From: a virus
IMG/VR virus record: IMGVR_UViG_3300020176_000010
Location: 17,141-81,140 of that record
Strand: one strand, 5' to 3'
DNA: 64,000 nucleotides
Each line of letters starts with the position of its first letter. Position 1 is the stretch's first letter. The position numbers and the translations under genes were made by a program. Below the pieces are notes generated by a model. The model searched no databases. It saw only the letters and a list, made by a program, of their open reading frames with translations, and was not told the origin of the DNA. Below, one piece after another: positions 2 to 10,103 of the stretch.

Positions 2-163
2 CACAACAGAACCGCCAGCTCCGGCGACACGCACTACGCCGACCAGAAGGTTGGCCTGCTGCCACAGTGGGTCAGCGAAGAAGGTCGTCGCGATTCAACG
101 CCGGCCGAATACAATCAGCGCATCGAGGCGATGAAAGATCTGATCGCCTGCCTCCGCAACTAA
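2..163 (+). CDS. 3' end of a large polyvalent virion protein (partial)
   Basis: Open frame HNRTASSGDTHYADQKVGLLPQW...RIEAMKDLIACLRN* ending at TAA 161-163, 12 nt before the next gene. The YADQKVGLLPxW motif resembles phage polyvalent proteins. Confidence 0.7.
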   Translation, partial: HNRTASSGDTHYADQKVGLLPQWVSEEGRRDSTPAEYNQRIEAMKDLIACLRN

Positions 164-175
164 GGACCGAAGTAC

Positions 176-3100
176 ATGGCCCAGATTACGAACTGCCTGA
201 AGCTCATCTCCCGCATGCCTGAGAGCGACCAGGACGCACTGGTTTCTCGACTTGACGAGCTGCAGGCTCTCGGCGTTCCTGCGCAGCGCGCACAGGTGCA
301 GGCGGCCATCGACCTGATGTCGCGCCTGGAGCGCGAGGCAAACCCGCAGGGTATTCAACGCAGCGCAGCGCGCGACGTCACCGAGACGCCGGAGTTCCGC
401 AGCTGGTTTGGCGATAGCAAGGTGGTGGATGCCGATGGCAAGCCGCTTGTCGTGTACCACGCAACCACATCGAACATTAAAAAGTTCTCGACGAAGAAGT
501 CAGCAGGCGGCTTCTACTTCACGCCAAACGCCGAAGATGCATACCCAAGCAAGCGCGGCGAAATGACGTCCGAGCGCGGTCTCAATGTGATGCCAGCCTA
601 CCTGGCCATCAACAGCCCACTGCGGACCAGCGACCCAGCCGATTGGCACAGGCTTGACGCAGACCGACGCTCCAGCATCGAGGATCGCGGATTTGACGGC
701 GTCATTGTTGAAAACGAAGACGGGTCTGTGCGCGAGTACATCGCCTTCGAGCCCAGCCAGATCAAGTCCGCCATCGGAAACCGGGGCACCTTCGACCCGG
801 CCGACCCCGACATCACCCGCAGCGCATCCCGCCTGCCCGCCGGTGTTGAAATCATCGAGGTCGATGATGGCTTCGACGCCATGCAAGACGGCAAGCGCAT
901 CGGCCGCCTGCGCGACAACCTGCCACGCGGCGCCGCTGAGCGGCTGGACGAAAACGCCAGCGTCGACATCGTCAAGGTCGAGAACGAGTTCAAGGGCCAA
1001 GGTGTTGGCGCGGCCCTGTACGACGCCTTCTACGAGAAGCACGGCGGCCGCATCGCGCCATCCGGCAAGACCTCGCCAGAGGCCTGGGCCCTGTGGAAGC
1101 GCAAGTTCCCTCAGAAGGTGCAGGAGTTCGTGCAGGCCGAAGCTCAGCGCATCCGCGACGGCGCAGACCCATTCATGGTCATGCGCAACATCACCGACAA
1201 GGACGTAGCGCGCGACGTGGCCATTGCGGCGGGCGACAACGTTATCCGCAGCGTGGCGCGGAATGTGGTCGATAGCGCCGAGTTCAAGCGCTGGTTCGGC
1301 GACAGTAAGGTGGCGGATGCCGAGGGTAAGCCGCTGGTGGTGTATCACGGCAGCCGATACAACGCCGACATCAAGAGGTTCAGCGCAGCAAAGTCCGAGC
1401 AATCGGCGGCGGAGCGCGGAATCTACTTTACCGACAGCGCAGATCATGCAGATCAATACGCGAGCCAGTGGGGAGACGCCAGCCCAGAAGACGGCGGCTC
1501 AATTTACCCCGTCTATCTGAAGATTGAAAACCCCTACGTTTCCAATGCGTGGGAGTGGAACATGGGCACAGACATCACGCCAGCCCAAGCTCGCAAACGA
1601 GGGCATGATGGCTACGTGATTCAAAACCACGAGGGCGGCACAACCTACATCGCCTTCCGCCCCGAGCAGATCAAGAGCGCCATCGGCAACCGCGGCACGT
1701 TCGACCCATCCGACACCGACATCACGCGCAGCGCCGCGCGCCCCGAATTCTTCAGCCAGCTGCAGCGCTCCATCGAACAAGTGCCAGACCGCCTGGCCAC
1801 CATGTCTGCGCCACAGTGGAAGCTCTGGCTTGACGCCAATGCAGCCAAGCTGGGCGTAAAGAAGGACGAGATTGAGTGGTCAACAATCAAGGATTACTTG
1901 ACACTTCGTGGCAAGGACAAGGTCACGCGCGACGAGTTGGCGGCATACCTGTCTGACAGCGGTGTGCGGGTGCGGGAGGTTGTTCTTGGTGGCGGCGGCA
2001 CTGAAAAGGTAACCTTGGTTCGAGACTCAACCAGGCAGGACGCATGGGGAGAAGTCGTCGTCTATCGAAGCTCCGACGGGGCTTTCGTTGTCGAGAATGG
2101 AATTGGTGGGCAGAGCTGGTCGGTTCAGGATGCCGATTCATACGACAGCGACTACTCAGAAGACGATGGAAGCTACGCAGGAAGCTTCAGCTCACGCGAA
2201 GCTGTAGAGTCTTTCATCAATGGCCAGACGCAGGCCGCCGACCCATATTACTCCGGCGTTGGATCGAACCCAGCAACCAAGTATGGCGCCTATACCGTGC
2301 CCGGCGGCCCGCTCTCGCGCGATACTGAGATCCTGACCCGTGATGGCTGGATGCGGATGGATGAGGTTCAGATCGGCGACGAGGTCATGACGCGACGAGA
2401 TGAAGACGGCGGCCTGGAGTGGCAGCCAGTTGAAGCGCTGCCGACCGTTTACGCAGAAAAGCTATACCACTTCAAGAATCAATCGATCAACATGCGCGTC
2501 ACGCCATGCCACAAGATGGTAGTCAAGCGTCGGCGCAGATCAACGGGCGAGATCGTTCGCGTCACGGCAGAGCAGCTTTGGGGCATGTCGGAGATGGTAG
2601 CCCCACTCACGGGGTCATGGGGCGGCGGTGAATTCTCTGACCTGTTTGATCAAGATCCTGGAGATGTCGCTGAGCTGCTTGGGTGGTTTATTGCAGAAGG
2701 CCACTACAAGACGGAGGCGGATGGCAAGAAGTCAACCATCGGTATTGCTCAGTGCCGATCAGCAAACAGCGACAAGTGCGCCCGTATCGAGTCCCTATTG
2801 GGGAGGATGGGTATCGCCTGGAATTACTCTGGCGGTCAGTATTGGCTGGGTGTCAAGAAGATGTCTGCCGATCTGGTGCAGCTTCTGCATGCACAAGGGA
2901 AATCTGCTGAAAAGTATGTGCCTGGCTTCATGTTCAATGCGCCAGCCAGCGTCATTCAGCGCATGCTTGATGGCCTCTTGCTTGGCGATGGCTGCCTTGT
3001 AAAGCAGAATGGCCGAAAGCCTCGGTGGACATACCACACGAAATCCAAGCAGCTGGCAGATGATGTCCAGGTGCTTGCTCTTCTCGTTGGTAAACGTGGA

Positions 3101-3739
3101 TCCGTGTCTCGGCGCAAGACGGGTCTTTACACGGTCACCATCAATGATAAGCAGTGGGCGAGCATCGATGATGCGAAGCACGCGGTCGTCGATTACAACG
3201 ACATCGCGTACTGCGTCACTGTGAAGAATCACTCGATCTACGTTCGTACCAATGGCGTCGCAGCGTTCACTGGAAACTCCAACTACCGCGAGGTGCTGAT
3301 CACGTTGCCTCCGATTGGCCGGGTGAGATACACCGAGGAAAATGTCGTCGCCATCGATGACGCGGACGACCCAAATCGTTCCCGCTACTTCTGGCGCTTC
3401 AAGGTTCCAGGCAATGAGCTACAGATCTCCAAGCAGGTTTACCGCACCCAGGAGGAGGCGAAGGCCTACATCCTGAGCGAGAAGCAGCCAGAGCCTCCGG
3501 CCGACAAGAACTACCGCTCCAGCCACTGGGATGCGCTGAATGTTATCGCGCATATCAGGGTGGATGATAGGGTGGACTCCGATGGAAAAAAAGTGCTCTT
3601 TGTGAATGAGCTGCAAAGTGATTTTGGCCAGGACTATCGCAAGGCAAAAGAAGCAATCGAGAGCGCTGTTGACACCGATTTTATGGGCATCGTCGAGCGC
3701 ATGAAAAAAGCAGGCGTACTGGAGGTTGTTTGTGATTAA
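176..3739 (+). CDS. Large polyvalent (ejection/internal virion) protein: 2 ART-PolyVal-like ADP-ribosyltransferase domains, GNAT domain, intein-containing domain
   Basis: Two copies of FxxWFGDSKVxDAxGKPLVVYH..G(F/I)YFT..YL.I..P..G.DG..YIAF.P.QIKSAIGNRGTFDP; GNAT motif A VENEFKGQGVGAALY; YTVPGG/SNYRE..SHW..AHIR..LFVNELQSD domain. Confidence 0.85.
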   Translation: MAQITNCLKLISRMPESDQDALVSRLDELQALGVPAQRAQVQAAIDLMSRLEREANPQGIQRSAARDVTETPEFRSWFGDSKVVDADGKPLVVYHATTSNIKKFSTKKSAGGFYFTPNAEDAYPSKRGEMTSERGLNVMPAYLAINSPLRTSDPADWHRLDADRRSSIEDRGFDGVIVENEDGSVREYIAFEPSQIKSAIGNRGTFDPADPDITRSASRLPAGVEIIEVDDGFDAMQDGKRIGRLRDNLPRGAAERLDENASVDIVKVENEFKGQGVGAALYDAFYEKHGGRIAPSGKTSPEAWALWKRKFPQKVQEFVQAEAQRIRDGADPFMVMRNITDKDVARDVAIAAGDNVIRSVARNVVDSAEFKRWFGDSKVADAEGKPLVVYHGSRYNADIKRFSAAKSEQSAAERGIYFTDSADHADQYASQWGDASPEDGGSIYPVYLKIENPYVSNAWEWNMGTDITPAQARKRGHDGYVIQNHEGGTTYIAFRPEQIKSAIGNRGTFDPSDTDITRSAARPEFFSQLQRSIEQVPDRLATMSAPQWKLWLDANAAKLGVKKDEIEWSTIKDYLTLRGKDKVTRDELAAYLSDSGVRVREVVLGGGGTEKVTLVRDSTRQDAWGEVVVYRSSDGAFVVENGIGGQSWSVQDADSYDSDYSEDDGSYAGSFSSREAVESFINGQTQAADPYYSGVGSNPATKYGAYTVPGGPLSRDTEILTRDGWMRMDEVQIGDEVMTRRDEDGGLEWQPVEALPTVYAEKLYHFKNQSINMRVTPCHKMVVKRRRRSTGEIVRVTAEQLWGMSEMVAPLTGSWGGGEFSDLFDQDPGDVAELLGWFIAEGHYKTEADGKKSTIGIAQCRSANSDKCARIESLLGRMGIAWNYSGGQYWLGVKKMSADLVQLLHAQGKSAEKYVPGFMFNAPASVIQRMLDGLLLGDGCLVKQNGRKPRWTYHTKSKQLADDVQVLALLVGKRGSVSRRKTGLYTVTINDKQWASIDDAKHAVVDYNDIAYCVTVKNHSIYVRTNGVAAFTGNSNYREVLITLPPIGRVRYTEENVVAIDDADDPNRSRYFWRFKVPGNELQISKQVYRTQEEAKAYILSEKQPEPPADKNYRSSHWDALNVIAHIRVDDRVDSDGKKVLFVNELQSDFGQDYRKAKEAIESAVDTDFMGIVERMKKAGVLEVVCD
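2309..3277 (+). mobile_element. Intein (323 aa) with LAGLIDADG endonuclease and non-canonical Pro1
   Basis: Block A PLSRDTEILTRDGW, block B VTPCH, LAGLIDADG motifs LLGWFIAEG and MLDGLLLGDG, block F AYCVTV, C-terminal FTGN|S. Removal restores YTVPGG-SNYREVLITLP. Confidence 0.9.
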
Positions 3740-4367
3740 GACCTTCTATGTTTACAGGCACTACCACACCGACAGCGGACTCCCATTTTATGTTGGCAAG
3801 GGGACCAGACTATCCAAGAGTGACGGCTATCGCAGGGCTTTTGATGTGCATCGAAGGAAGGCCTCATGGAAAAGCGCGTCCGCAAAGCACGGCCTAGTGG
3901 TAGAGGTTGTGGCCGAGTTCTTTGCTGAGGCGGATGCTCTTGCGTTTGAGGCCGATTTGATAGCTATGCATGGTCGCCGGGATCTTTGTGCTGGCACGCT
4001 CATAAATCACACCGATGGGGGTGAGGGGTGCTCTGGGTTTAAGCACAAGCCGGAGTCAATCGAGCGCATTCGGATGGCAAGCCAAGGGCGCCGCCTTGGC
4101 GATGCGTCACGCCGCAGAATCTCCGATGCGCTAACCGGTAGTCGGCACCCTGGCTACGGCCGCCGGCAGTCGGCAGAAACGTCCGAGCGAAAAAGGGTGG
4201 CGATGCTAGGTAAAAACTTAAATGGTCGCTCTGTGCTGGATCGCTCAACAGGCGCTGTGTACAAATCAGTTCTTGCGGCATCAAGAGCAACAGGAATACC
4301 GGCACGAACACTCGCCAACTATCTGCATGGCGAGAGGAAGAATAGAACAGAAATGGAGTTCGCATAA
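3732..4367 (+). CDS. Free-standing GIY-YIG-type homing endonuclease with NUMOD-like DNA-binding repeats
   Basis: FYVYRH..FYVGKG..R..EADALAFEADLI..LINHTDGGEG, then NUMOD3-like and terminal HTH-like segments. GTG start at 3732 after GGAGG; overlaps both neighbours. Confidence 0.85.
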   Translation: MIKTFYVYRHYHTDSGLPFYVGKGTRLSKSDGYRRAFDVHRRKASWKSASAKHGLVVEVVAEFFAEADALAFEADLIAMHGRRDLCAGTLINHTDGGEGCSGFKHKPESIERIRMASQGRRLGDASRRRISDALTGSRHPGYGRRQSAETSERKRVAMLGKNLNGRSVLDRSTGAVYKSVLAASRATGIPARTLANYLHGERKNRTEMEFA

Positions 4368-7300
4368 TGGCCTGCCGATACACCTACCAGGGCAAGACCT
4401 ACGAGGCCCACGAATTCGACGACGTGCTGCGCGCTATGGCGCCAATGGATGCGGAGAAGTTCATGCCTACCGTGAAGAGCATTCCATCAGCGCCACTGAT
4501 CTCCGACACCAAGGCCTGGGCCGGCCTCGCCCTGAAGCGCGCCATCATGATGGCCGTGGAGGAGGGGCACGACAAGATCGCTTTGATCACCGGGCAGCAG
4601 GCCGCGGATCTCTATGACCTGAGCAAGCAGATCAGCAGGGTCGAGTTCTCGGACGCCAGCAGCGGAGGCGTCAGTGATGCCAACCTTGGCGCGCCAGATG
4701 GATCTGGGAATCTGTCGGCATTCGACCTTGACGGCAAGCGTGTCATCGACACCTATGTCAGCGCCGACAAGATCGAGGACTATGTTGGCAAGGAGGTTGC
4801 GCGCAAACTACTCGAATCCGAGCCAAGGGCCGTCCGCGCCGCCGGAGTTGGCCTGCGTCGCCGCTCCCTTGATGGCCTAGACCTCAAGGTCGGTGGCGAA
4901 GGCATGCGCGCCTTCTACGACCAGATCATCCCCCAGGTGGCGCGCGACGTGCTGAAGAGGCTGGGCGGCGGGCAACTGGCCACAGCGAAAATCACAACCG
5001 ACAAGAATGGCTGGCACATCACGCCACCCAGCCAGACGGCCAGCGGAAAGTGGATGGTCAAGAGCAGCGACTACAACTCCGTCGGCCTCAAGTTCGACAC
5101 AGAGGCCGAGGCGCGCGCCGCCCTGGCCGAGAAGCAGGAAACGAGCGAGCAGGTTTCGCTCGACATCACGGACTCCATGCGCGAGAAGGTGGCCTCCGGC
5201 GTGCCGCTGTTCAGCCGCCGCCGTGGCTGGGATGCATTCCCTGACGCGATCATCGCGACACCGCCGTCCACACAATCAAGCGACCCATCGTACGCAGCAG
5301 CCAAGGGCGGCGACATGAAGGCCGCGCTCGAGCTCGTGGACCGCGTGATGCCCGATGACATCGAGCAGCGCGTGCGCGCAACCATTGGTGATGCCAAGCC
5401 TATCGTTGCCGCCGTGCACGCCGAAGAGGCCGCCGGCCGCAACAAGATCCCCTTGGCCACCGCCTTCGTGCTCGGAGAGCGCATGGGTCTGCAGGTCGAC
5501 GAGAAGCTGGTTCAGGCATCACGCGCCAAGCGCACCGGCTCCGACGGCATGGCCCGCCTCGGCGTGCAGCCAGAGTTTGCCGGCGAAGTGGAGCGCGACG
5601 CAGACTACCTGCTGGTCGATGACACCCTGGCCCAGGGCGGCACGCTGGCGCAGCTCAAGACCCACATCGAGGACAACGGCGGCCGCGTCGTGGGGGTATT
5701 CGCGCTGAGCGGCAAGCAATACTCTGCTAAGATTTCCCTTGATAATGCAACACTTAATGATGTCAGGGCGAAGTATGGATCGATCGAAGACTGGTGGAAA
5801 GGCGAGCTCGGCTACGGCTTCGAAGGCCTCACACAGTCCGAGGCCCGCTACATGCTCAACTCCGGGCTTTCGCCTGAAGCCCTGCGAGATCGAGTCGCTG
5901 CAGCACGACAAGCGGCTGGCGCTGGAGATGGCGCGCAGCGTTCGGAAAGCGTTGGCGATCAAGAAGTAGTACGCAGCATGCCGCGCGTTCCTGGTTTGAA
6001 CGCCGGGCCTGTCGAGAGCACGACAGGAGACTATGGCCGCGAGTACACGCCGCAGCAGTTGGCCATGTTCAAGAACACCGGCCGCACCACGCAGAAGCCG
6101 TCCCTCGTTGAGCGCCTAAAAGAGGCTCGCAAAGACTTGGGCAAGAAGATGGCCCAAGGCATCGTCGATCAATTCCGCCCGCTGCGCGATCTCGGCGGCA
6201 ACGCCTACACGCTGGCCCGCTTGTCAAAGGGCGCGGCCGGCGCGTTCGAGGCGCTGCTTGGCCACGGCAAACTGAAGATCGTCGATGGAGCCTACGACGC
6301 AGACACCAGCGGCGGCTTCATTGACACCGTCGGCAAACCCCTTGGCCGCGAGATCGAAGACTTCATGTGGTGGGTAGCCGCCAACCGCGCGGACAGCCTT
6401 TCTCTGCAGGACCGCGAGAACCTCTTCACTGACGACGACATTGCCGCGGGCAAATCGCTGGCAGACGGAGACCTCGAGTTCGACTACCTCCTGCAGAGCG
6501 GCGCAACAACGCGCGACCGCAAGGCCGCCTACGAGGACTCGCTGAAGAAGTTCAACGCGTTTGGCAAGAATGTGCTGGACATCGCCGAGGAGAGCGGACT
6601 GATCGATGGAGAGAGCCGCAAGCTGTGGGAGAGTGAGTTCTACGTGCCGTTCTACCGCGTGAGCGAAGAGGATGGCTCATTCATTGGCGCAAAGATCAAG
6701 GGCGGCCTGGCTCGCCAGCGCGCGTTCCACGAGCTCAAAGGCGGAAGCCAGAAGCTGAACAGCGACCTGCTGGCGAACACCATGCGCAACTGGGCGCACC
6801 TGATCGACGCGTCTGCGAAGAACCGCGCAGCCAAGGCGACGCTTGAGTCTGCGCAGAATGTCGGCATCGCGCTTGAGGCTGACGCTGAGACCGTACGCCA
6901 GCTCGGAAAGTCGATGGGCGGCAAGGGTGGCACCGTTTGGTTCATGGACGGCGGCCAGCAGCGCCACTTCCTGGTTGGCGACCCATACGTGCTCGAGGCA
7001 ATCAATAGCCTGGAGTACGCCGGCCTGCGCGGCCCACTGATGGACGCCCTTTCCACAATGAAGCACTGGCTGACCGTCGGCGTCACGGCGTCGCCAGCGT
7101 TCAAGATCCGCAACTTGATCCGCGACTCGATTCAGGCCATCAGCTTGAGCGGCCTGAGCTACAACCCGGTGACCAACCTGGTTGAGGGCTACAAGGCCAC
7201 AGATCGAGCAAGCCAGGACTACGTCTCTACGCTGGCATCTGGCGGCCTGATTCGCTTTGGCTCCATGCTGGAAGACAGCGCATCAGAGCGCGTACGGAGG

Positions 7301-8572
7301 CTTGTGAAGAAGGGCGTCGATGGCAACACCATCCTGGACAGCGAGAGCAAGGTGCAGGCCTTCTATGGGAAGTACCTTGAGCCAGCGATTGAGGCCTACC
7401 AAGAGATCGGCAACCGCGGGGAGGAGATCAACCGCGCCTCGCTGTACAAGCAGCTGCGCGCAAAGGGCGTAAGTCATGCGGAGGCATCCCTGATGGCGCG
7501 CGACCTTATGGACTTCAGCATGCAGGGAACGTGGACCAGCATTCGGTTCCTGACCCAGGTTGTGCCGTTCATGAACGCCCGCCTGCAGGGTATGTACAAG
7601 CTGGGCCGTGGAGCCATGGAGGATCCTCGTCGATTCGCCCTGGTTACCGGCGCCGTGGCACTCATGTCTATCTCGCTGCTGGCGGCCTACGGCGATGACG
7701 ACGACTGGAAAAAGCGCGAGGACTGGGATCGCGATGGATTCTGGTGGTTCAAGTTCGGCGGCACAGCATTCCGCATTCCGAAGCCATTCGAAATTGGCGC
7801 CATCGGCAGCCTTGCCGAGCGTGGAGTTGAGCTCTTCACCAACGACGAGTTCACCGCAAAGCGCTTCGGCAGCCGGGTGCTCCACCTGCTTGGCGACAAC
7901 CTGGCCATGAACCCAATTCCGCAAGCTGTGAAGCCAATGCTGGACATCTACGCCAACAAGGACAGCTTCTCCGGCAGGCCGATCGAGTCGATGGGCATGG
8001 AGCGCCTGCAGTCCGAGTACCGCTACAACGTGCACACAAGCATGATCGCCAGGGGCGCCAGCTCCGCGCTGAATGCGGCAACGCGCACCGTTGGCGCGGA
8101 GGCCCTCAGCCCGGTGCAGATCGACTCACTGATCCGCGGATACTTTGGATGGCTTGGAACCTTTGTGGTTGCAGGAGCGGATATGGCAGTGCGCCCACTC
8201 ACTGACGAGCCAGCACGCCCACAGGCCGATTACCTGAAGGTGGTGTCACAGGGTTTCTTGAAGACCTTGCCAGAGCCTGGCTCAAAGTACGTGAGCGCCA
8301 TGTACGACCAGGCAAAGGTAATCGAGCAGGCCTACGCCACGCACCGGCAGATGGTCAAAGAGGGCAAGGTCGACGAGGCGCGCGAGTTCGCGGCCGAGAA
8401 CAAAGATCTGCTGGAGCGCCACCGCAGGATCGAGGGCGTCAAAGAGGCCCAGTCCAAGATCAACAAGCGCGTGCGCGAGATCGAGCTCAGCGACATGGAC
8501 CCAGCTCGCAAGGCCGAGGAGATCCAAAAGCTGCGCGATCAGTCGGGCAAGATCGCTCGGAAGGTTTACTGA
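4367..8572 (+). CDS. Large polyvalent ejection protein: second half of the split domain, PRTase domain, C-terminal LPD38-like region
   Basis: PSAP..W..LALKRAIMMAVEEGHDKIALITGQQAADLYDLSKQ; PRPP-binding loop YLLVDDTLAQGGTL; FRIPKPFEIG motif and hydrophobic helix near the C-terminus. Confidence 0.85.
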   Translation: MACRYTYQGKTYEAHEFDDVLRAMAPMDAEKFMPTVKSIPSAPLISDTKAWAGLALKRAIMMAVEEGHDKIALITGQQAADLYDLSKQISRVEFSDASSGGVSDANLGAPDGSGNLSAFDLDGKRVIDTYVSADKIEDYVGKEVARKLLESEPRAVRAAGVGLRRRSLDGLDLKVGGEGMRAFYDQIIPQVARDVLKRLGGGQLATAKITTDKNGWHITPPSQTASGKWMVKSSDYNSVGLKFDTEAEARAALAEKQETSEQVSLDITDSMREKVASGVPLFSRRRGWDAFPDAIIATPPSTQSSDPSYAAAKGGDMKAALELVDRVMPDDIEQRVRATIGDAKPIVAAVHAEEAAGRNKIPLATAFVLGERMGLQVDEKLVQASRAKRTGSDGMARLGVQPEFAGEVERDADYLLVDDTLAQGGTLAQLKTHIEDNGGRVVGVFALSGKQYSAKISLDNATLNDVRAKYGSIEDWWKGELGYGFEGLTQSEARYMLNSGLSPEALRDRVAAARQAAGAGDGAQRSESVGDQEVVRSMPRVPGLNAGPVESTTGDYGREYTPQQLAMFKNTGRTTQKPSLVERLKEARKDLGKKMAQGIVDQFRPLRDLGGNAYTLARLSKGAAGAFEALLGHGKLKIVDGAYDADTSGGFIDTVGKPLGREIEDFMWWVAANRADSLSLQDRENLFTDDDIAAGKSLADGDLEFDYLLQSGATTRDRKAAYEDSLKKFNAFGKNVLDIAEESGLIDGESRKLWESEFYVPFYRVSEEDGSFIGAKIKGGLARQRAFHELKGGSQKLNSDLLANTMRNWAHLIDASAKNRAAKATLESAQNVGIALEADAETVRQLGKSMGGKGGTVWFMDGGQQRHFLVGDPYVLEAINSLEYAGLRGPLMDALSTMKHWLTVGVTASPAFKIRNLIRDSIQAISLSGLSYNPVTNLVEGYKATDRASQDYVSTLASGGLIRFGSMLEDSASERVRRLVKKGVDGNTILDSESKVQAFYGKYLEPAIEAYQEIGNRGEEINRASLYKQLRAKGVSHAEASLMARDLMDFSMQGTWTSIRFLTQVVPFMNARLQGMYKLGRGAMEDPRRFALVTGAVALMSISLLAAYGDDDDWKKREDWDRDGFWWFKFGGTAFRIPKPFEIGAIGSLAERGVELFTNDEFTAKRFGSRVLHLLGDNLAMNPIPQAVKPMLDIYANKDSFSGRPIESMGMERLQSEYRYNVHTSMIARGASSALNAATRTVGAEALSPVQIDSLIRGYFGWLGTFVVAGADMAVRPLTDEPARPQADYLKVVSQGFLKTLPEPGSKYVSAMYDQAKVIEQAYATHRQMVKEGKVDEAREFAAENKDLLERHRRIEGVKEAQSKINKRVREIELSDMDPARKAEEIQKLRDQSGKIARKVY

Positions 8573-8775
8573 CAGCACGGGGCTGTGATGGCCCCGTATC
8601 TGATTGCCTGGAGGATGGATCCAACGATCCATCCGGCAGCCCCGAGGCAAACCATCCAGACGACAGCCGTGCCAAACAAGTCCTTGATGCGAGCCTTTGT
8701 GGCACCGCCAAGGATTGCAAAAAGACCAAAGAAAGCGAGTAGTGCGAGCATTGCCGATTTTATAGAGGTCGGCAA
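8566..8775 (-). CDS. Small membrane protein
   Basis: 69 aa with two hydrophobic segments, convergent with the ejection gene. Confidence 0.5.
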   Translation of the reverse strand: MPTSIKSAMLALLAFFGLFAILGGATKARIKDLFGTAVVWMVCLGAAGWIVGSILQAIRYGAITAPCCQ

Positions 8776-8796
8776 TGCTTGAGTCTCTTTTCTGCG

Positions 8797-9012
8797 CTAA
8801 ATCGTGCAGAACTCGTGCAGCTGTCGCTTTTTTAAGACGTATGCCTCATGAGCCTTTTCTGGTGCCTCGTAGAAGCCTGCGTGGTGCTGCTTGCCATTCA
8901 GGTTCACCTTTGCTCCCCATGCGTTTCGCTGCGCAGACCAGTAGACGCCAAGCAGGCCCGATGCCTTGTTGTGCGACCACGCCTTCCGCGTGTTCTGCGC
9001 ATTCTGGGACTT
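8797..9012 (-). pseudogene. AP2-domain gene fragment interrupted by the IS
   Basis: KSQNAQN..SGLLGVYW..WGAKVNLNGKQHHAGFYEAPEKAHEAY is the AP2 tail typical of HNH-AP2 proteins; it begins exactly at the IS right end. Confidence 0.8.
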
Positions 9013-9029
9013 TTGACATCCTCTCCGGC

Positions 9030-10103
9030 CTAAACGCCGGAGATTCCTTCTGCAAGACGGCGATGTCCCGCCGCGAGAATGTTTTTTGCTGCATTCACGT
9101 CCCGGTCGTGTACCGCGCCGCAGTCGCTGCAAACCCATTCTCTTATTCGCAAACCTGCTCTACCTTTCGGACTGCTGGCGGGTATGGCCCCGCAGCACGA
9201 ACAAGTCTGGGTGGTGTAGCTTTCGTTGACTACCTCGAAGACGATACCGGCCTGCTGGCTCTTGTATTCCAACATCGTCTTCAAACTGGCCCAGCCCGCA
9301 TCCAGCGTGCTCTTGGCCATCTTGGTTTTGACCAGCTTGGCGCTGGCCACGTCGCCCACGAAGATGGCGGCGTTGTTTTTCACAAGGTTCGTGGTGAACT
9401 TATGGATTGCATCCTTGCGGCGATTCGCAATCTTGGCGTGTATCGCCTTGACGCGCTTTTTCTTCCGCGCCCGTTGCGCGACCGCCAGATGCGGCTCAAG
9501 CTCACGGAACCACCGTCCTTGCAGCTTGTCGCCGTCGCTTGTGGTGGCGCACTCTTTCAGACCCAAATCGATGCCAACAGCCGATGCCCCCTGGCTGGGA
9601 AGAGCCTCGACCTCGACGGCAACATTGAAATACCAGCGCCCACGGCTGTCTTCGTTGAACGATCCGGCTCGCAGCTCAAAGCGGCTCAGGCCATAGCTGT
9701 CCCACAGGCTGAATTTGTGCCCACCAAACTGGACTTGGCCCGACTTGTACTTGGCGTGCCCGCCCTTGAATGGAATCCAGCCAAGCGAATACTTGGGCGA
9801 CTTCGGGTTGCTGACGCGCCAGTTGAGGCGGGTCTTCTTGAACTGCTTGCGGCGTGTGGCGTACTCCACGCACACCAGTTGCACTGTGCCGCTGCCGACC
9901 GTAACGCCATCGCACCTGCTGTAGCCGGCGGTGAGCTTCTGTAGGTCGTAGGCGCTCAGCCACTTGCCACGCTCACGGATGGCGCGGCTGCTGGTTTCGT
10001 TGGCGAAGTTGAACACCTGATTCACGTCGCGCGCCATGCGCCGAAGCACACTGGCGTGCTTGTCCTTGATGCGAATCTTGAGTGTCTTCACTGCCGTCTG
10101 CAT
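9030..10103 (-). CDS. tnpB: TnpB RNA-guided endonuclease
   Basis: MQTAVKTLKIRIK start; RuvC-I VGIDLG; Zn finger TCSCCG..WVCSDCG; RuvC-III DRDVNAAKNI. Confidence 0.95.
   Translation of the reverse strand: MQTAVKTLKIRIKDKHASVLRRMARDVNQVFNFANETSSRAIRERGKWLSAYDLQKLTAGYSRCDGVTVGSGTVQLVCVEYATRRKQFKKTRLNWRVSNPKSPKYSLGWIPFKGGHAKYKSGQVQFGGHKFSLWDSYGLSRFELRAGSFNEDSRGRWYFNVAVEVEALPSQGASAVGIDLGLKECATTSDGDKLQGRWFRELEPHLAVAQRARKKKRVKAIHAKIANRRKDAIHKFTTNLVKNNAAIFVGDVASAKLVKTKMAKSTLDAGWASLKTMLEYKSQQAGIVFEVVNESYTTQTCSCCGAIPASSPKGRAGLRIREWVCSDCGAVHDRDVNAAKNILAAGHRRLAEGISGV

What the first reader, a model, noticed from the sequence alone, without database searches (positions are those of the whole stretch)
3600..4500. 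Homing endonuclease sits in a split domain flanked by putative re-joining peptides
Seen: one domain is divided between two genes (..AHIR..LFVNELQSD in gene 1; PSAP..W..LALKR..GHDKIA..TGQQ..YDLSKQ in gene 2). From my recollection of this family, these motifs normally lie in one polypeptide. Between them are a 43-aa tail ending VVCD*, the GIY-YIG gene overlapping both neighbours (no space for a group I intron core) and a leader MACRYTYQGKTY. Codons from about 3540 to 3739 look more A/T-ending than the rest of gene 1, consistent with co-conversion. Known precedent: mobE splitting nrdA in phage Aeh1. Inference: tail + endonuclease + leader may be a mobile cassette that repairs its insertion by protein docking rather than RNA or protein splicing.
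Basis: partly seen in the sequence, partly recalled or inferred. Interest (0 to 1): 0.82.

Follow-up and report, generated by a model that had tools for sequence, protein, structure and literature searches.

The report
Endonuclease-split phage protein with docking peptides
A selfish endonuclease gene sits inside a giant phage virion-protein gene and cuts one conserved domain into two genes, whose new ends carry a conserved pair of cysteine-tipped peptides that probably clip the halves back together without RNA or protein splicing.

Summary
Gene 1 (176-3739) ends with the N-half of a conserved domain plus a 38-aa tail (..GVLEVVCD*). An I-TevI-like GIY-YIG gene (3726-4367) overlaps both neighbours. 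Gene 2 (4367-8572) starts with a 36-aa leader (MACRYTYQGKTY..) followed by the C-half.

- In 15 of 20 related viral loci and 10 of 46 related proteins the two halves are one chain, joined by a hypervariable linker.
- Tail and leader have no counterpart in those linkers.
- The leader stands at the exact N-terminus in 123 of 124 profile hits. It varies synonymously, so selection acts on the peptide. It supplies the only Cys in 78 of 85 long proteins.
- Of 16 locus types split at this site, 13 carry the endonuclease, 1 keeps a remnant of it, and 2 hold other genes.
- Nearly identical split and unsplit alleles exist.
- In a wastewater run the endonuclease and its left flank are far closer to the window than the surrounding gene is.
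- Tail-leader co-folding gets weak support.

The connector also occurs at other junctions and without the endonuclease, so the endonuclease probably carries it but did not invent it. The closest precedent is Aeh1 nrdA/mobE (Crona 2011). This scan noted the same kind of cassette on DNA of at least five other genomes.

The parts
176..3739 (+). Gene 1: polyvalent virion protein part, 1187 aa. It has two ART-PolyVal domains and an intein, then the N-half of the split domain and the tail.
   Evidence: ORF. Pfam ART-PolyVal E = 1.6e-49, LAGLIDADG_3 E = 1.5e-9.
3278..3622 (+). N-half of the split domain (C-extein part): SNYREVLITLP .. AHIRVDDR .. VLFVNELQSD. Its first strand starts before the intein, at about 2282-2308.
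   Evidence: Aligns to the contiguous domain of 15 viral loci and 10 proteins. In the AF2 model of an unsplit relative it corresponds to strands 21-26, 87-97 and 103-112.
3623..3739 (+). Tail: FGQDYRKAKEAIESAVDTDFMGIVERMKKAGVLEVVCD plus the stop codon. The Cys is the penultimate residue.
   Evidence: Conserved in 14 of 14 loci, with invariant D17, F20, M27, G31 and C37. It is C-terminal in 10 of 10 gene-1-like proteins. No counterpart in unsplit alleles.
3536..4364 (+). Compositionally foreign tract: the end of the N-half, the tail and the endonuclease gene.
   Evidence: GC3 is 35/67 in 3536-3736 and 117/209 in the endonuclease gene, against 0.75-0.83 in the flanks. Wastewater contigs are 99.5-99.7% identical on 3449-3631 and 3966-4296, but 93-97% identical on the flanks.
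3726..4367 (+). Free-standing I-TevI-like GIY-YIG homing endonuclease gene, 213 aa from TTG 3726 (GTG 3732 is an alternative start).
   Evidence: NUMOD3 E = 1.7e-7. PHROG 314 'homing endonuclease' E = 2.3e-15. The family profile hits the I-TevI DNA-binding domain 1I3J, E = 6.3e-6. Invariant Y10, H12, Y22, G24, R37, E75 and N94. The GIY-YIG Pfam model is below threshold.
4355..4358 (+). GGAG ribosome-binding site of gene 2, inside the last codons of the endonuclease gene (..MEFA*), 8 nt before the ATG.
   Evidence: Read. GGAG stands at that distance in 14 of the 16 aligned loci, including the HEG-less L003, L024, L033 and L038; L028 and L032 have GAGG at the same place and L025 has no such site.
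4367..4474 (+). Leader: MACRYTYQGKTYEAHEFDDVLRAMAPMDAEKFMPTV, with Cys3.
   Evidence: 16-locus alignment, mean column identity 83%. The profile finds 124 proteins, 123 of them with the match at the N-terminus. Codons vary synonymously. GC3 is 30/36.
4484..4939 (+). C-half of the split domain: PSAPLISDTKAW..LALKR..GHDKIA..TGQQAADLYDLSKQ .. GGEGMRAFYDQIIPQV.
   Evidence: About 80% identical to the unsplit protein P0127. Contiguous with the N-half in unsplit alleles.
4367..8572 (+). Gene 2: 1401 aa, with the leader, the C-half and an LPD38 domain. Its only Cys is Cys3.
   Evidence: LPD38 E = 1.1e-36. Cys count.

Best explanation
Genes 1 and 2 are two pieces of one phage polyvalent (virion-packaged) protein. 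The break lies in a naturally hypervariable loop of a conserved alpha/beta domain, between the strand ..VLFVNELQSD and the helix ..W..LALKR.

In place of that loop the split allele carries a three-part unit:
1. A C-terminal tail (helix-helix-strand, ..GVLEVxCD*).
2. An I-TevI-like GIY-YIG homing endonuclease gene, packed between the stop of gene 1 and the start of gene 2.
3. An N-terminal leader (MACRYTYQGKTYEAHEFDDVLRAM..).

How it probably works:
- Tail and leader probably co-fold into a small inter-chain module that holds the two polypeptides, and so the two domain halves, together.
- Its two invariant cysteines are almost the only ones in these proteins. They possibly lock the pair with a disulfide in the virion.
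- The endonuclease probably cuts endonuclease-free alleles near the conserved N-half sequence.
- Repair from a split donor, using the conserved halves as homology arms, would copy tail, endonuclease gene and leader over the recipient's linker.
- The insertion would then be harmless and the unit would spread.

The connector itself is older or broader than this endonuclease. It also joins other polyvalent-protein genes.

Shown here: the anatomy, the conservation, the terminal position, the replacement of the linker, and the association with the endonuclease.

Inferred: docking, the disulfide, the cleavage site and homing.
For: 1. The split is real. 15 of 20 viral loci and 10 of 46 proteins have the halves in one chain. 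The linkers there are unalignable and run from about 0 to over 100 aa.

2. Tail and leader are absent from unsplit alleles. hhalign of the leader profile against the unsplit domain gives probability 0.2%, and of the tail profile 7.4%.

3. Selection acts on the peptides.
- Leader mean column identity is 83% in 16 loci, with synonymous variation at most codons. The adjoining gene-2 N-terminal region of those loci is 37-53% identical.
- The tail is conserved in 14 of 14 loci.

4. The peptides are always terminal.
- 123 of 124 hits of the leader profile among 1.84 billion representatives start at residue 1-4. The one internal hit is weak, E = 2.5e-4.
- 10 of 10 tail-bearing proteins end with the tail.

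5. Cysteines.
- 123 of 123 leaders have Cys at residue 3 or 4.
- 85 proteins of 500 aa or more (110,608 residues) hold only 16 Cys outside the leader. 78 of the 85 have exactly one.
- In 7 of the 9 other tail-bearing proteins the only Cys are one near the N-terminus and the penultimate residue; 2 have the penultimate Cys alone, and the window's own adds 5 inside its intein.

6. Portability.
- 18 of 109 leader proteins of 120 aa or more continue with other modules. Examples are ART-PolyVal in P0212 and P0274, and the whole unsplit domain in P0195.
- L024 has tail and leader but neither domain half.

7. Co-folding test of tail alignment plus leader alignment: weak support.
- ipSAE 0.56 (runs 0.49, 0.60, 0.56), best of 3 controls 0.02.
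- pLDDT of the peptides is 84-89 together and 42-51 with unrelated partners.
- The runs agree in at least 98% of contacts.
- The tool's calibration: 58 of 80 solved complexes and 2 of 110 mismatched pairs reached the mark. At 0.60 or under, only 7 of those 80 did, together with both of the mismatches that passed.

8. Association with the endonuclease.
- Of 16 locus types split at this site, 13 have a GIY-YIG gene in the gap.
- The four L003-L006 contigs (one locus type) keep a 66-nt remnant, made of the first 12 codons of an L026-like endonuclease and its last 17 nt.
- 2 types hold unrelated minus-strand ORFs.

9. Gain or loss between close alleles.
- On a tree of the C-half region, with the leader excluded, the split state needs 21 changes among 122 rows. 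Well-supported branches force at least 7.
- P0150 (split) and L012 (unsplit) are about 97% identical from W51 on. They differ at 4 of the 12 residues before that and are unrelated further upstream.
- The window's C-half is closest to the unsplit P0127, about 80% identical.

10. Recent transfer.
- The GC3 drop runs from 3536 to 4364.
- In wastewater run X4 the contigs on 3449-3631 and 3966-4296 differ at 2 of 514 bases. Those on 3004-3393 and 4384-4612 differ at 28 of 622 (Fisher p = 6e-6).

11. Precedent. Tails tied to the mobE insertion are essential for the split Aeh1 NrdA (Crona et al. 2011, PMC3045599; abstract, Introduction and Discussion read).
Against: - Docking is not demonstrated. The complex test is only 'weak support' and gave no contacts, so whether the two Cys are adjacent is unknown.
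- The window's leader is host-like in composition (30/36 GC3) while the tail is not. If the last transfer had brought the whole unit, the leader should look foreign too. This fits better a transfer into an allele that was already split.
- 77 of the 80 best endonuclease relatives in IMG/VR have no tail or leader beside them. The pair also occurs without any endonuclease (L024, L033, L038, L043). The peptides are therefore not a product of this endonuclease family.
- The polyvalent genes are mosaics. Gene 1 is only 43% identical to P0125 over 715 aa, while the C-half is 66% identical. Ordinary modular recombination could interleave split and unsplit states.
- No split/unsplit pair is close enough on the N side to map the left end.
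- The tree is FastTree only, with 16 of 118 inner branches starred.
- The X4 pieces are low-depth metagenome contigs and may come from more than one phage.
- No cleavage site is known.
- Unlike the Aeh1 tails, these peptides are both mildly acidic (pI 5.2 and 4.95), so the charge-pairing model does not apply.
Confidence: 0.6

Rival explanations
1. The tail-leader connector is an old, regular gene boundary of polyvalent-protein gene arrays and is inherited vertically. The GIY-YIG gene merely settled in the intergenic gap, as free-standing endonuclease genes do, and homes only between alleles that are already split. The scatter of split and unsplit states comes from ordinary module shuffling and is not driven by the endonuclease.
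For: - The leader heads other modules in 18 of 109 proteins.
- Pairs occur without an endonuclease at other sites (L024; L043).
- Other Cys-tipped junction types exist with no endonuclease. One is at window 163/176. Others are the N-termini MAQISNC.. and MAK[NT]CTYSF...
- The window's leader has host-like GC3, while the tail and endonuclease gene do not.
- 77 of 80 endonuclease relatives lack the flanks.
- The genes are mosaic.
Against: - At this site 13 of 16 locus types carry the endonuclease and one more keeps a remnant.
- The endonucleases in the gap are only 30-38% identical to each other, which points to a long joint history and not a recent squatter.
- Near-identical alleles differ exactly by linker versus leader. 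In P0150 versus L012 a short converted stretch sits at the right border.
- No contiguous tail-leader form exists among 1.84 billion representatives.
Confidence: 0.3
2. The two polypeptides are joined covalently by chemistry at the terminal cysteines, for example a very small split-intein-like or ligase-like reaction. They are not simply docked.
For: - Cys is invariant at the penultimate tail residue and at leader residue 3, in proteins otherwise almost free of Cys.
- Fractured genes with split inteins around a free-standing endonuclease are known (Dassa et al. 2009, PMC2677866; search listing and start of the abstract only).
Against: - Tail plus leader total 74 aa, too small for a Hint fold.
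- The Pfam Hint and LAGLIDADG hits lie only in the true intein at aa 714-992.
- The Cys sit at the chain termini, not at extein-intein junctions.
- No C-terminal His-Asn or block motifs were seen in the alignments. The comparison with intein blocks is from recall.
Confidence: 0.04
3. The halves do not reassemble. The split inactivated the domain, and the two genes work independently or are decaying.
For: No functional data exist. The function of the domain is unknown: there is no Pfam hit even for unsplit forms, and the fold match is only a middling GNAT-like one.
Against: - Both halves stay conserved and open in all split loci. The motifs are as well kept as in unsplit alleles.
- Tail and leader are under strong purifying selection.
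- The split form is found in 123 clusters at 50% identity.
Confidence: 0.04
4. The interruption is removed at the RNA level, by a group I intron carrying the endonuclease ORF or by translational bypass.
For: Endonuclease genes of this family are often intron-borne. I-TevI is the closest solved relative of the DNA-binding part.
Against: - No Rfam family reached threshold in 3200-4800.
- The endonuclease ORF overlaps both neighbours, leaving no room for an intron core.
- Tail and leader are protein-coding with synonymous variation. They keep the same stop and start whatever fills the gap, which ranges from 63 to 976 nt with unrelated contents.
- No joint was seen in the laid contigs, but none bridged the site, so this last point is not a test.
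Confidence: 0.02

Closest known systems
Aeromonas phage Aeh1 nrdA-a / mobE / nrdA-b: fragmented ribonucleotide reductase assembled by tails (Crona et al. 2011, PMC3045599; abstract, Introduction and Discussion read)
   Same: - A free-standing homing endonuclease gene splits one gene between two secondary-structure elements of a conserved domain.
- The endonuclease gene overlaps the downstream piece.
- Composition dips over the insert.
- The new C- and N-terminal peptides have no counterpart in unsplit homologues.
- No RNA or protein splicing is involved.
- The authors proposed this as a general way to neutralise fragmentation.
   Different: - Aeh1 is a single known case, with an HNH-family MobE and oppositely charged tails that promote dimerisation of heterodimers.
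- Here the endonuclease is GIY-YIG and I-TevI-like.
- Both peptides are mildly acidic.
- They form a conserved family present in 123 clusters, always terminal and Cys-tipped.
- They are reused at other junctions of polyvalent proteins and are sometimes found without any endonuclease.
- Their function is not tested here.
Fractured genes: split inteins with a free-standing homing endonuclease gene between the halves (Dassa et al. 2009, PMC2677866; search listing and start of the abstract only)
   Same: The gene order is N-piece with an added C-terminal peptide, then the endonuclease gene, then an added N-terminal peptide with the C-piece. The arrangement recurs in metagenomic phage DNA.
   Different: Those flanks are intein halves that splice the protein. 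Here the flanks total 74 aa, show no Hint signal and have their Cys at the chain ends.
Phage T4 topoisomerase genes 39 and 60 split by mobA, with tail-like extensions (as discussed in Crona et al. 2011, Discussion read)
   Same: An endonuclease-associated gene split with terminal extensions that are speculated to reassemble the enzyme.
   Different: The T4 case is not shown to depend on the tails, and no conserved, portable peptide family has been described for it.
Free-standing GIY-YIG homing endonucleases of phages (Seg-type; I-TevI architecture)
   Same: - A GIY-YIG-like N-terminal domain with the conserved Tyr, Tyr-x-Gly, Arg, Glu and Asn.
- A NUMOD3 motif and an I-TevI-like DNA-binding tail.
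- An intergenic position with overlapping start and stop.
- Marker co-conversion is expected (from recall of Seg and I-TevI biology).
   Different: This sub-lineage sits inside a domain, between two dedicated peptides. 77 of its 80 best relatives sit between ordinary genes.
Polyvalent proteins of phages and conjugative elements (Iyer et al. 2017, PMC5512222; listing and 'find' passages only)
   Same: Genes 1 and 2 carry ART-PolyVal and LPD38 domains. An LPD38 protein, phi24B gp47, was detected in virions and proposed to be an ejection protein (preprint 10.64898/2026.04.10.717836, passages read).
   Different: The main text of that paper contains none of the words homing, intein, split, disulfide or adjacent genes. 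Cys-tipped connectors between successive genes are not described there. Its supplements were not seen.

Membership tests
Genes-in-pieces with endonuclease-associated assembly tails (Aeh1 NrdA type) | Homologues encode the two pieces as one polypeptide | tested here: met
   15 of 20 viral loci and 10 of 46 proteins are contiguous. Phage Dfl-JY45 has them in one CDS.
Genes-in-pieces with endonuclease-associated assembly tails (Aeh1 NrdA type) | A free-standing homing endonuclease gene lies between the pieces | tested here: met
   ORF 3726-4367. The same arrangement occurs in 13 of 16 locus types.
Genes-in-pieces with endonuclease-associated assembly tails (Aeh1 NrdA type) | The terminal peptides at the break are absent from unsplit homologues | tested here: met
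   The linkers of unsplit alleles are unrelated. hhalign probabilities are 0.2% and 7.4%. No internal leader was found among 1.84 billion representatives.
Genes-in-pieces with endonuclease-associated assembly tails (Aeh1 NrdA type) | The tails are needed for assembly or activity | not testable with these tools
   The only indirect evidence is the co-folding test: weak support, ipSAE 0.56, best control 0.02.
Genes-in-pieces with endonuclease-associated assembly tails (Aeh1 NrdA type) | The tails originated with the endonuclease insertion | tested here: inconclusive
   For: co-occurrence at this site, and a tail that looks compositionally foreign. Against: the pair occurs at other sites and without an endonuclease, and 77 of 80 endonuclease relatives lack it.
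GIY-YIG homing endonuclease (I-TevI-like) | Match to the GIY-YIG catalytic domain profile | tested here: inconclusive
   PF01541 gives E = 0.2 for the window and 0.018 and 0.0049 for two relatives, all below the gathering score, over profile positions 2-73 of 78. The family profile against the PDB gives a GIY-YIG protein at E = 0.029.
GIY-YIG homing endonuclease (I-TevI-like) | Conserved Tyr (GIY), Tyr-x-Gly (YIG), Arg, Glu and Asn | tested here: met
   Y10, Y22, G24, R37, E75 and N94 are invariant in 22 sequences. Their assignment to catalytic roles is from recall of I-TevI.
GIY-YIG homing endonuclease (I-TevI-like) | NUMOD3 motif and I-TevI-type DNA-binding C-terminal region | tested here: met
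   NUMOD3 31.5 bits against a cut-off of 20.4. 1I3J (I-TevI DNA-binding domain) at E = 6.3e-6.
GIY-YIG homing endonuclease (I-TevI-like) | Site-specific cleavage and homing | not testable with these tools
   Indirect only: the GC3 tract and the unequal divergence in run X4.
Split intein / fractured gene | The flanking peptides form a Hint fold with intein blocks | tested here: not met
   Hint_2 and LAGLIDADG_3 hits lie only at aa 714-992 of gene 1, which is the true intein. Nothing is found in the tail or in gene 2. Tail plus leader total 74 aa.
Group I intron carrying an endonuclease ORF | A structured intron core flanks the ORF | tested here: not met
   No Rfam intron match in 3200-4800 at E up to 1. 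The ORF overlaps both coding neighbours.
Phage polyvalent protein | Several polyvalent-protein domains in giant ORFs | tested here: met
   Two ART-PolyVal domains and LPD38. PHROG 18222 at E = 9.5e-232.
GNAT-like fold (for the split domain) | Structural match to GNAT acetyltransferases | tested here: inconclusive
   The AF2 model of unsplit L014 has mean pLDDT 69. In VIA-align the top 11 of the 50 rows shown are GNAT-type acetyltransferases and most of the rest are too, but at Z 8.0-6.0, rmsd 2.5-5.5 and 78-108 aligned residues, a range the tool calls middling. The best Foldseek E-value is 1.2e-3 with TM 0.2-0.4. There is no Pfam hit.

The most novel reading that the evidence does not exclude
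The tail and leader are the two halves of a self-contained, portable heterodimerising mini-domain. Its single inter-chain cysteine pair would chain successive polyvalent-protein gene products covalently in the oxidised virion and release them in the reducing host cytoplasm.

A homing endonuclease flanked by these halves could then land in any permissive loop of such a protein and leave it functional. That would be a third class of self-healing mobile insertion beside introns and inteins. It would be a natural family and not a one-off as in Aeh1.
Probability: 0.3. Interest if true: 0.88.

Novelty: new variant of a known kind. Interest (0 to 1): 0.72.

Why it matters
Homing endonucleases are thought to survive inside genes only by riding in introns or inteins. 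One experimentally studied exception is known, Aeh1 NrdA, where unique tails reassemble the broken enzyme.

This locus belongs to a large natural family (123 clusters at 50% identity) in which the same two short peptides recur at the break. They are always terminal, are under protein-level selection, and hold almost the only cysteines of proteins 1000-2300 aa long.

If they dock, several things follow:
- The published idea of tails as an antidote to fragmentation becomes a widespread, testable mechanism.
- It would explain how giant virion proteins can be encoded in pieces.
- It would explain why these proteins avoid cysteine.
- It would offer a compact natural pair of split-protein tags (about 34 and 36 aa) for protein engineering.

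It also bears on annotation. Gene callers and domain models miss the domain because it is split. No Pfam family matches it even when it is whole.

Tried and rejected
- Nucleotide search of 3000-5500 against GenBank phages found no match.
- phmmer of the endonuclease alone against PDB sequences found nothing at E up to 1. The family profile was needed.
- Pfam on the unsplit domain (L014, L012) found no family.
- Foldseek against the PDB found nothing at E up to 0.001.
- hhalign of the tail against the unsplit domain gave a 16-column resemblance to the helix-strand after the break (KRMIRYAAENGFDKVA), probability 7.4%. This is too weak to claim that the tail is a copy of it.
- A search for a closer split locus with P0143 in IMG/VR found none.
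- No split/unsplit pair is close on the N side, so the left end of the exchanged unit could not be mapped.
- GC3 of tails in other loci shows no consistent dip. Only the window and L029 show a low tail next to a high leader.
- Laid contigs showed no joints. No contig bridged 3737-4366 as a deletion. Contigs of the RNA library X19 lie only on 4026-4176 and 4827-5127, and DNA may be present in that library. This neither shows nor excludes splicing or expression. Parts without cover mean nothing.
- I considered folding tail and leader as one chain by reading L003 through its in-frame TGA. I left this out, because a genetic code may be named only to test how an organism reads its DNA.
- The contexts of the 18 proteins whose leader heads another module could not be fetched.
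Those of Iyer 2017 and Crona 2011 might bear on whether the domain or the peptides were listed before.
- Literature searches for a description of such connectors (and 'find' in Iyer 2017) found only the Aeh1 work and the fractured-gene work.

Full report
WHAT IS THERE

The window is the last 64 kb of an 81,140-bp IMG/VR virus record judged 99% complete.

Gene 1 (176-3739, 1187 aa) has two ART-PolyVal domains and an intein with a LAGLIDADG domain. After the intein come SNYREVLITLP .. AHIRVDDR .. VLFVNELQSD and then FGQDYRKAKEAIESAVDTDFMGIVERMKKAGVLEVVCD and the stop.

A 213-aa ORF (3726-4367) starts inside the last codons of gene 1. Its TAA stop overlaps the ATG of gene 2 (TAATG).

Gene 2 (4367-8572, 1401 aa, LPD38 domain) begins MACRYTYQGKTYEAHEFDDVLRAMAPMDAEKFMPTVKSI. 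It continues PSAPLISDTKAW..LALKR..GHDKIA..TGQQAADLYDLSKQ.

The middle ORF is an I-TevI-like GIY-YIG endonuclease.
- NUMOD3 is above threshold.
- PHROG 314 'homing endonuclease' gives E = 2.3e-15.
- A 22-sequence family alignment keeps Y10, H12, Y22, G24, R37, E75 and N94 invariant.
- The family profile hits the I-TevI DNA-binding domain 1I3J at E = 6.3e-6.
- The Pfam GIY-YIG model itself stays below its cut-off.

No Rfam family, intron or other, reached threshold in 3200-4800.

THE DOMAIN IS SPLIT

In 15 of the 20 IMG/VR loci found with the start of gene 2, both halves lie in one open frame. Four loci (L003-L006, one phage type) are split, and one has no upstream DNA.

Ten of the 46 proteins found with gene 2 residues 1-130 hold both halves. 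Several of them start with the same N-terminus as gene 1, MAQISNCLKLI...

All unsplit forms read E[IL]QSDWGQxGKKKGF, then a linker, then VPxAPFVTDTKAW. The linker cannot be aligned between relatives. It ranges from almost nothing (L014) to more than 100 aa (L020).

An AlphaFold2 model of the L014 domain (11-row alignment, mean pLDDT 69) puts the site in a low-confidence loop, residues 115-129. The loop lies between strand 103-112 and helix 132-149.

The fold searches returned mostly GNAT-type acetyltransferases, including the top 11 VIA-align rows, but only at middling scores: VIA-align Z 8.0-6.0 and a best Foldseek E-value of 1.2e-3. I leave the fold open. Pfam has no model for the domain even when it is whole.

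TAIL AND LEADER ARE A CONSERVED PAIR

Fourteen loci give the tail consensus FGQxxRKQKDAIxKAVDxDFxGIVERMKKAGVLEVxCD, always followed by a stop. Sixteen loci give the leader consensus MACRYTYQGKTYEAHEFDDVLRAMxPxxAAKYMPGV.

Neither peptide has a counterpart in unsplit alleles. hhalign probabilities are 0.2% and 7.4%.

The leader's codons vary synonymously. Codons 4, 6, 9 and 14, for example, each use four codons. Conservation is therefore at the protein level.

A profile of the 36 leader columns was run against 1.84 billion representative proteins. It found 124 proteins, and in 123 the match begins at residue 1-4. The one internal match is weak, E = 2.5e-4. No contiguous tail-leader form turned up.

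Ten of 10 proteins found with the tail end in ..G[VA]L[EQ]V[VD]C[DE].

THE CYSTEINES

This follows a lead from another first-stage note, which I checked.
- All 123 leaders have Cys at residue 3 or 4.
- The 85 leader proteins of 500 aa or more total 110,608 residues. They hold 101 Cys, and 85 of these are the leader Cys. 78 of the 85 proteins have exactly one Cys.
- Gene 1 has Cys only at residue 7, at the penultimate residue, and inside the intein. Of the other 9 tail-bearing proteins, 7 have Cys only near the N-terminus and at the penultimate residue, and 2 have only the penultimate one.
- Nine of the 10 unsplit relatives have a single Cys, near the N-terminus, and P0155 has none.

I infer that the terminal Cys have a dedicated role. 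An inter-chain disulfide is the simplest candidate. This is not shown.

DO THEY BIND?

The tail alignment and the leader alignment were folded together. The result was 'weak support'.
- ipSAE was 0.56 (runs 0.49, 0.60, 0.56) and the best of three controls was 0.02.
- The peptides had pLDDT 84-89 together and 42-51 with unrelated partners.
- The runs agreed in at least 98% of contacts.
- By the tool's calibration, 58 of 80 solved complexes and 2 of 110 mismatched pairs reached the mark. At 0.60 or under, only 7 of those 80 did, together with both mismatches that passed.
- No contacts were given.

Both peptides are mildly acidic (pI 5.2 and 4.95), unlike the oppositely charged Aeh1 tails.

ASSOCIATION WITH THE ENDONUCLEASE

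I collected loci with the leader from IMG/VR, metagenomes and GTDB genomes.

At this break point there are 16 distinct locus types.
- 13 have a GIY-YIG gene in the gap: the window, L023/L036, L025=L037, L026, L027 (partial), L028, L029, L030, L031 (partial), L032, L034, L035 (a short form) and L039.
- These genes are only 30-38% identical to the window's. They keep the same packing: the start overlaps ..CD*, the end ..NPTxLEFA* holds the GGAG of gene 2, and the stop overlaps the ATG.
- L003-L006 have a 66-nt spacer that reads MWKHYVYIQRRA... This matches the start of the L026 endonuclease (MWRHYVYVHRRA). The spacer ends with the last 17 nt of the endonuclease gene, so it is a deletion remnant.
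- L033 and L038 hold unrelated minus-strand ORFs in the gap.

Conversely, of the 80 best endonuclease relatives in IMG/VR (out of at least 402), only 3 are flanked by a tail and a leader. The other 77 sit between ordinary genes. One sub-lineage of the family is therefore tied to this gap.

THE CONNECTOR OCCURS ELSEWHERE

- In 18 of 109 leader proteins of 120 aa or more, the leader is followed by something else. Examples are ART-PolyVal (P0212, P0274), the whole unsplit domain (P0195) and the N-half (P0177).
- L024 has tail and leader 81 nt apart, with no endonuclease and neither domain half.
- L043, an AT-rich phage, has a distant pair (..GLQIIC* followed by MSCVYVFKGNEY..) in another context.

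EVIDENCE FOR MOVEMENT

1. I built a FastTree tree of the region after the leader, with 122 rows.
   - I left out proteins shorter than 330 aa and those whose BLAST match did not span query residues 12-150.
   - The split state needs 21 changes, against a shuffled mean of 23.0. 72 of 500 shuffles were as low.
   - Starred branches force at least 7 changes.
   - Two rows that I labelled unsplit (P0177, P0195) carry the leader at another position.

2. Close split/unsplit pairs exist: P0150/L012, P0126/P0159 and P0143/L009. The window itself lies next to the unsplit P0127 (about 80%) and P0125 (66%). P0150 and L012 are about 97% identical from W51 onward. They differ at 4 of the 12 residues before it and are unrelated upstream of that.

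3. In the window, GC3 falls to 35/67 in 3536-3736 and 117/209 in the endonuclease gene. It is 69/86 just before this tract and 30/36 in the leader.

4. In wastewater run X4 the contigs on 3449-3631 and 3966-4296 differ from the window at 1 of 183 and 1 of 331 bases. Those on 3004-3393 differ at 12 of 393, and the one on 4384-4612 at 16 of 229. Fisher p = 6e-6 for the inside against the flanks.

Points 3 and 4 say that the endonuclease gene and its left flank are younger than the surrounding gene. The right border lies at the junction of endonuclease gene and leader.

This fits an I-TevI-like enzyme that cuts upstream of its insertion point (from recall) and co-converts that side. It also suggests that the last event in this lineage entered an allele that was already split.

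Caveats:
- The genes are mosaic.
- The contigs are of low depth.
- The tree is a quick one.

READING

The best reading is a docking connector with an endonuclease living in its gap. The three parts travel together at this site and replace the hypervariable loop. The connector is a broader device of polyvalent-protein gene arrays, not an invention of this endonuclease (confidence 0.6).

The main rival is that the boundary is ancient and the endonuclease only moves between split alleles (0.3).

Protein ligation, RNA removal and loss of function are unlikely, for the reasons given under the rivals.

WHAT IS KNOWN

Crona et al. 2011 showed that tails tied to the mobE insertion are essential for the split Aeh1 NrdA. 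They proposed this as a general antidote to fragmentation and noted that such tails would be hard to find by similarity.

Dassa et al. 2009 described fractured genes with split inteins around an endonuclease. I saw the listing only.

The polyvalent-protein survey of Iyer et al. 2017 does not use the words homing, intein, split or disulfide in its main text.

An LPD38 polyvalent protein was detected in phi24B virions and proposed to be an ejection protein.

My four literature searches found no description of this peptide pair. I did not see any supplements.

Earlier notes of this scan describe the same kind of cassette in at least five other genomes. Those are AI notes and not independent evidence.

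VERDICT

This is a new variant of a known kind. It turns a single published case into a large, conserved and testable family, with the added feature of cysteines confined to the chain ends.

Noticed in passing
window 2309-3277: An intein with a LAGLIDADG domain sits in the same domain's N-half, inside the conserved motif TVPGG|xNY[KR]E. Homologues read GGxNY with nothing inserted. One domain therefore hosts both an intein and the endonuclease split. The exact N-terminal residue of the intein (Pro712 or Ser714) is unclear.
   Followed up: partly
window 2-163 and 176-220: A second Cys-tipped junction. The upstream giant gene ends ..KDLIACLRN*, and 12 nt later gene 1 starts MAQITNCLKLISRM. No endonuclease lies between them. 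Of the 10 unsplit relatives, 5 start MAQISNCLK.., 9 have a single Cys at residue 6-9 and P0155 has none.
   Followed up: partly
proteins P0282, P0285, P0286: A third kind of Cys-bearing N-terminus, MAK[NT]CTYSFTxPxGQxVVLTG.., heads tail-bearing gene-1-like proteins. Its hairpin-like pattern resembles the leader.
   Followed up: no
L033 3571-3924 (-); L038 3361-3936 (-) and 3039-3314 (-): In two loci the tail-leader gap holds minus-strand ORFs in place of the endonuclease: a 117-aa protein that looks coiled-coil with a hydrophobic end, and ORFs of 191 and 91 aa. The 81-nt spacer of L024 resembles the 3' end of the L033 spacer.
   Followed up: partly
L043 (reverse strand), around 5774 of the reversed locus: An AT-rich phage has a distant connector-like junction, ..DLKSKGLQIIC* followed at once by MSCVYVFKGNEYSESEF... 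It lies after a protein with an HExxH motif and has no endonuclease.
   Followed up: no
L001 (Dolichospermum phage Dfl-JY45, PP438435) 6001-6876 and 8752-9831: The unsplit domain occurs twice in tandem inside one annotated 2387-aa CDS.
   Followed up: no
window 3623-3700 versus 4526-4580: The tail shows a weak profile resemblance to the helix-strand just after the break: K.AI.KAVD.DF.GIV against KRMIRYAAENGFDKVA (hhalign probability 7.4%). This may be chance or may hint at the tail's origin.
   Followed up: partly
window 3449-4296, run X4: A 2021 wastewater metagenome holds contigs 99.5-99.7% identical to the endonuclease gene and its left flank. The window's own best holders are 2018 salt-marsh runs.
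   Followed up: partly
protein P0177: In this protein the leader precedes the N-half of the domain (..AWLRMNERTDAEGNKGTFLEEIQSQ..) and not the C-half. The same connector is thus used one element earlier in the same domain.
   Followed up: no
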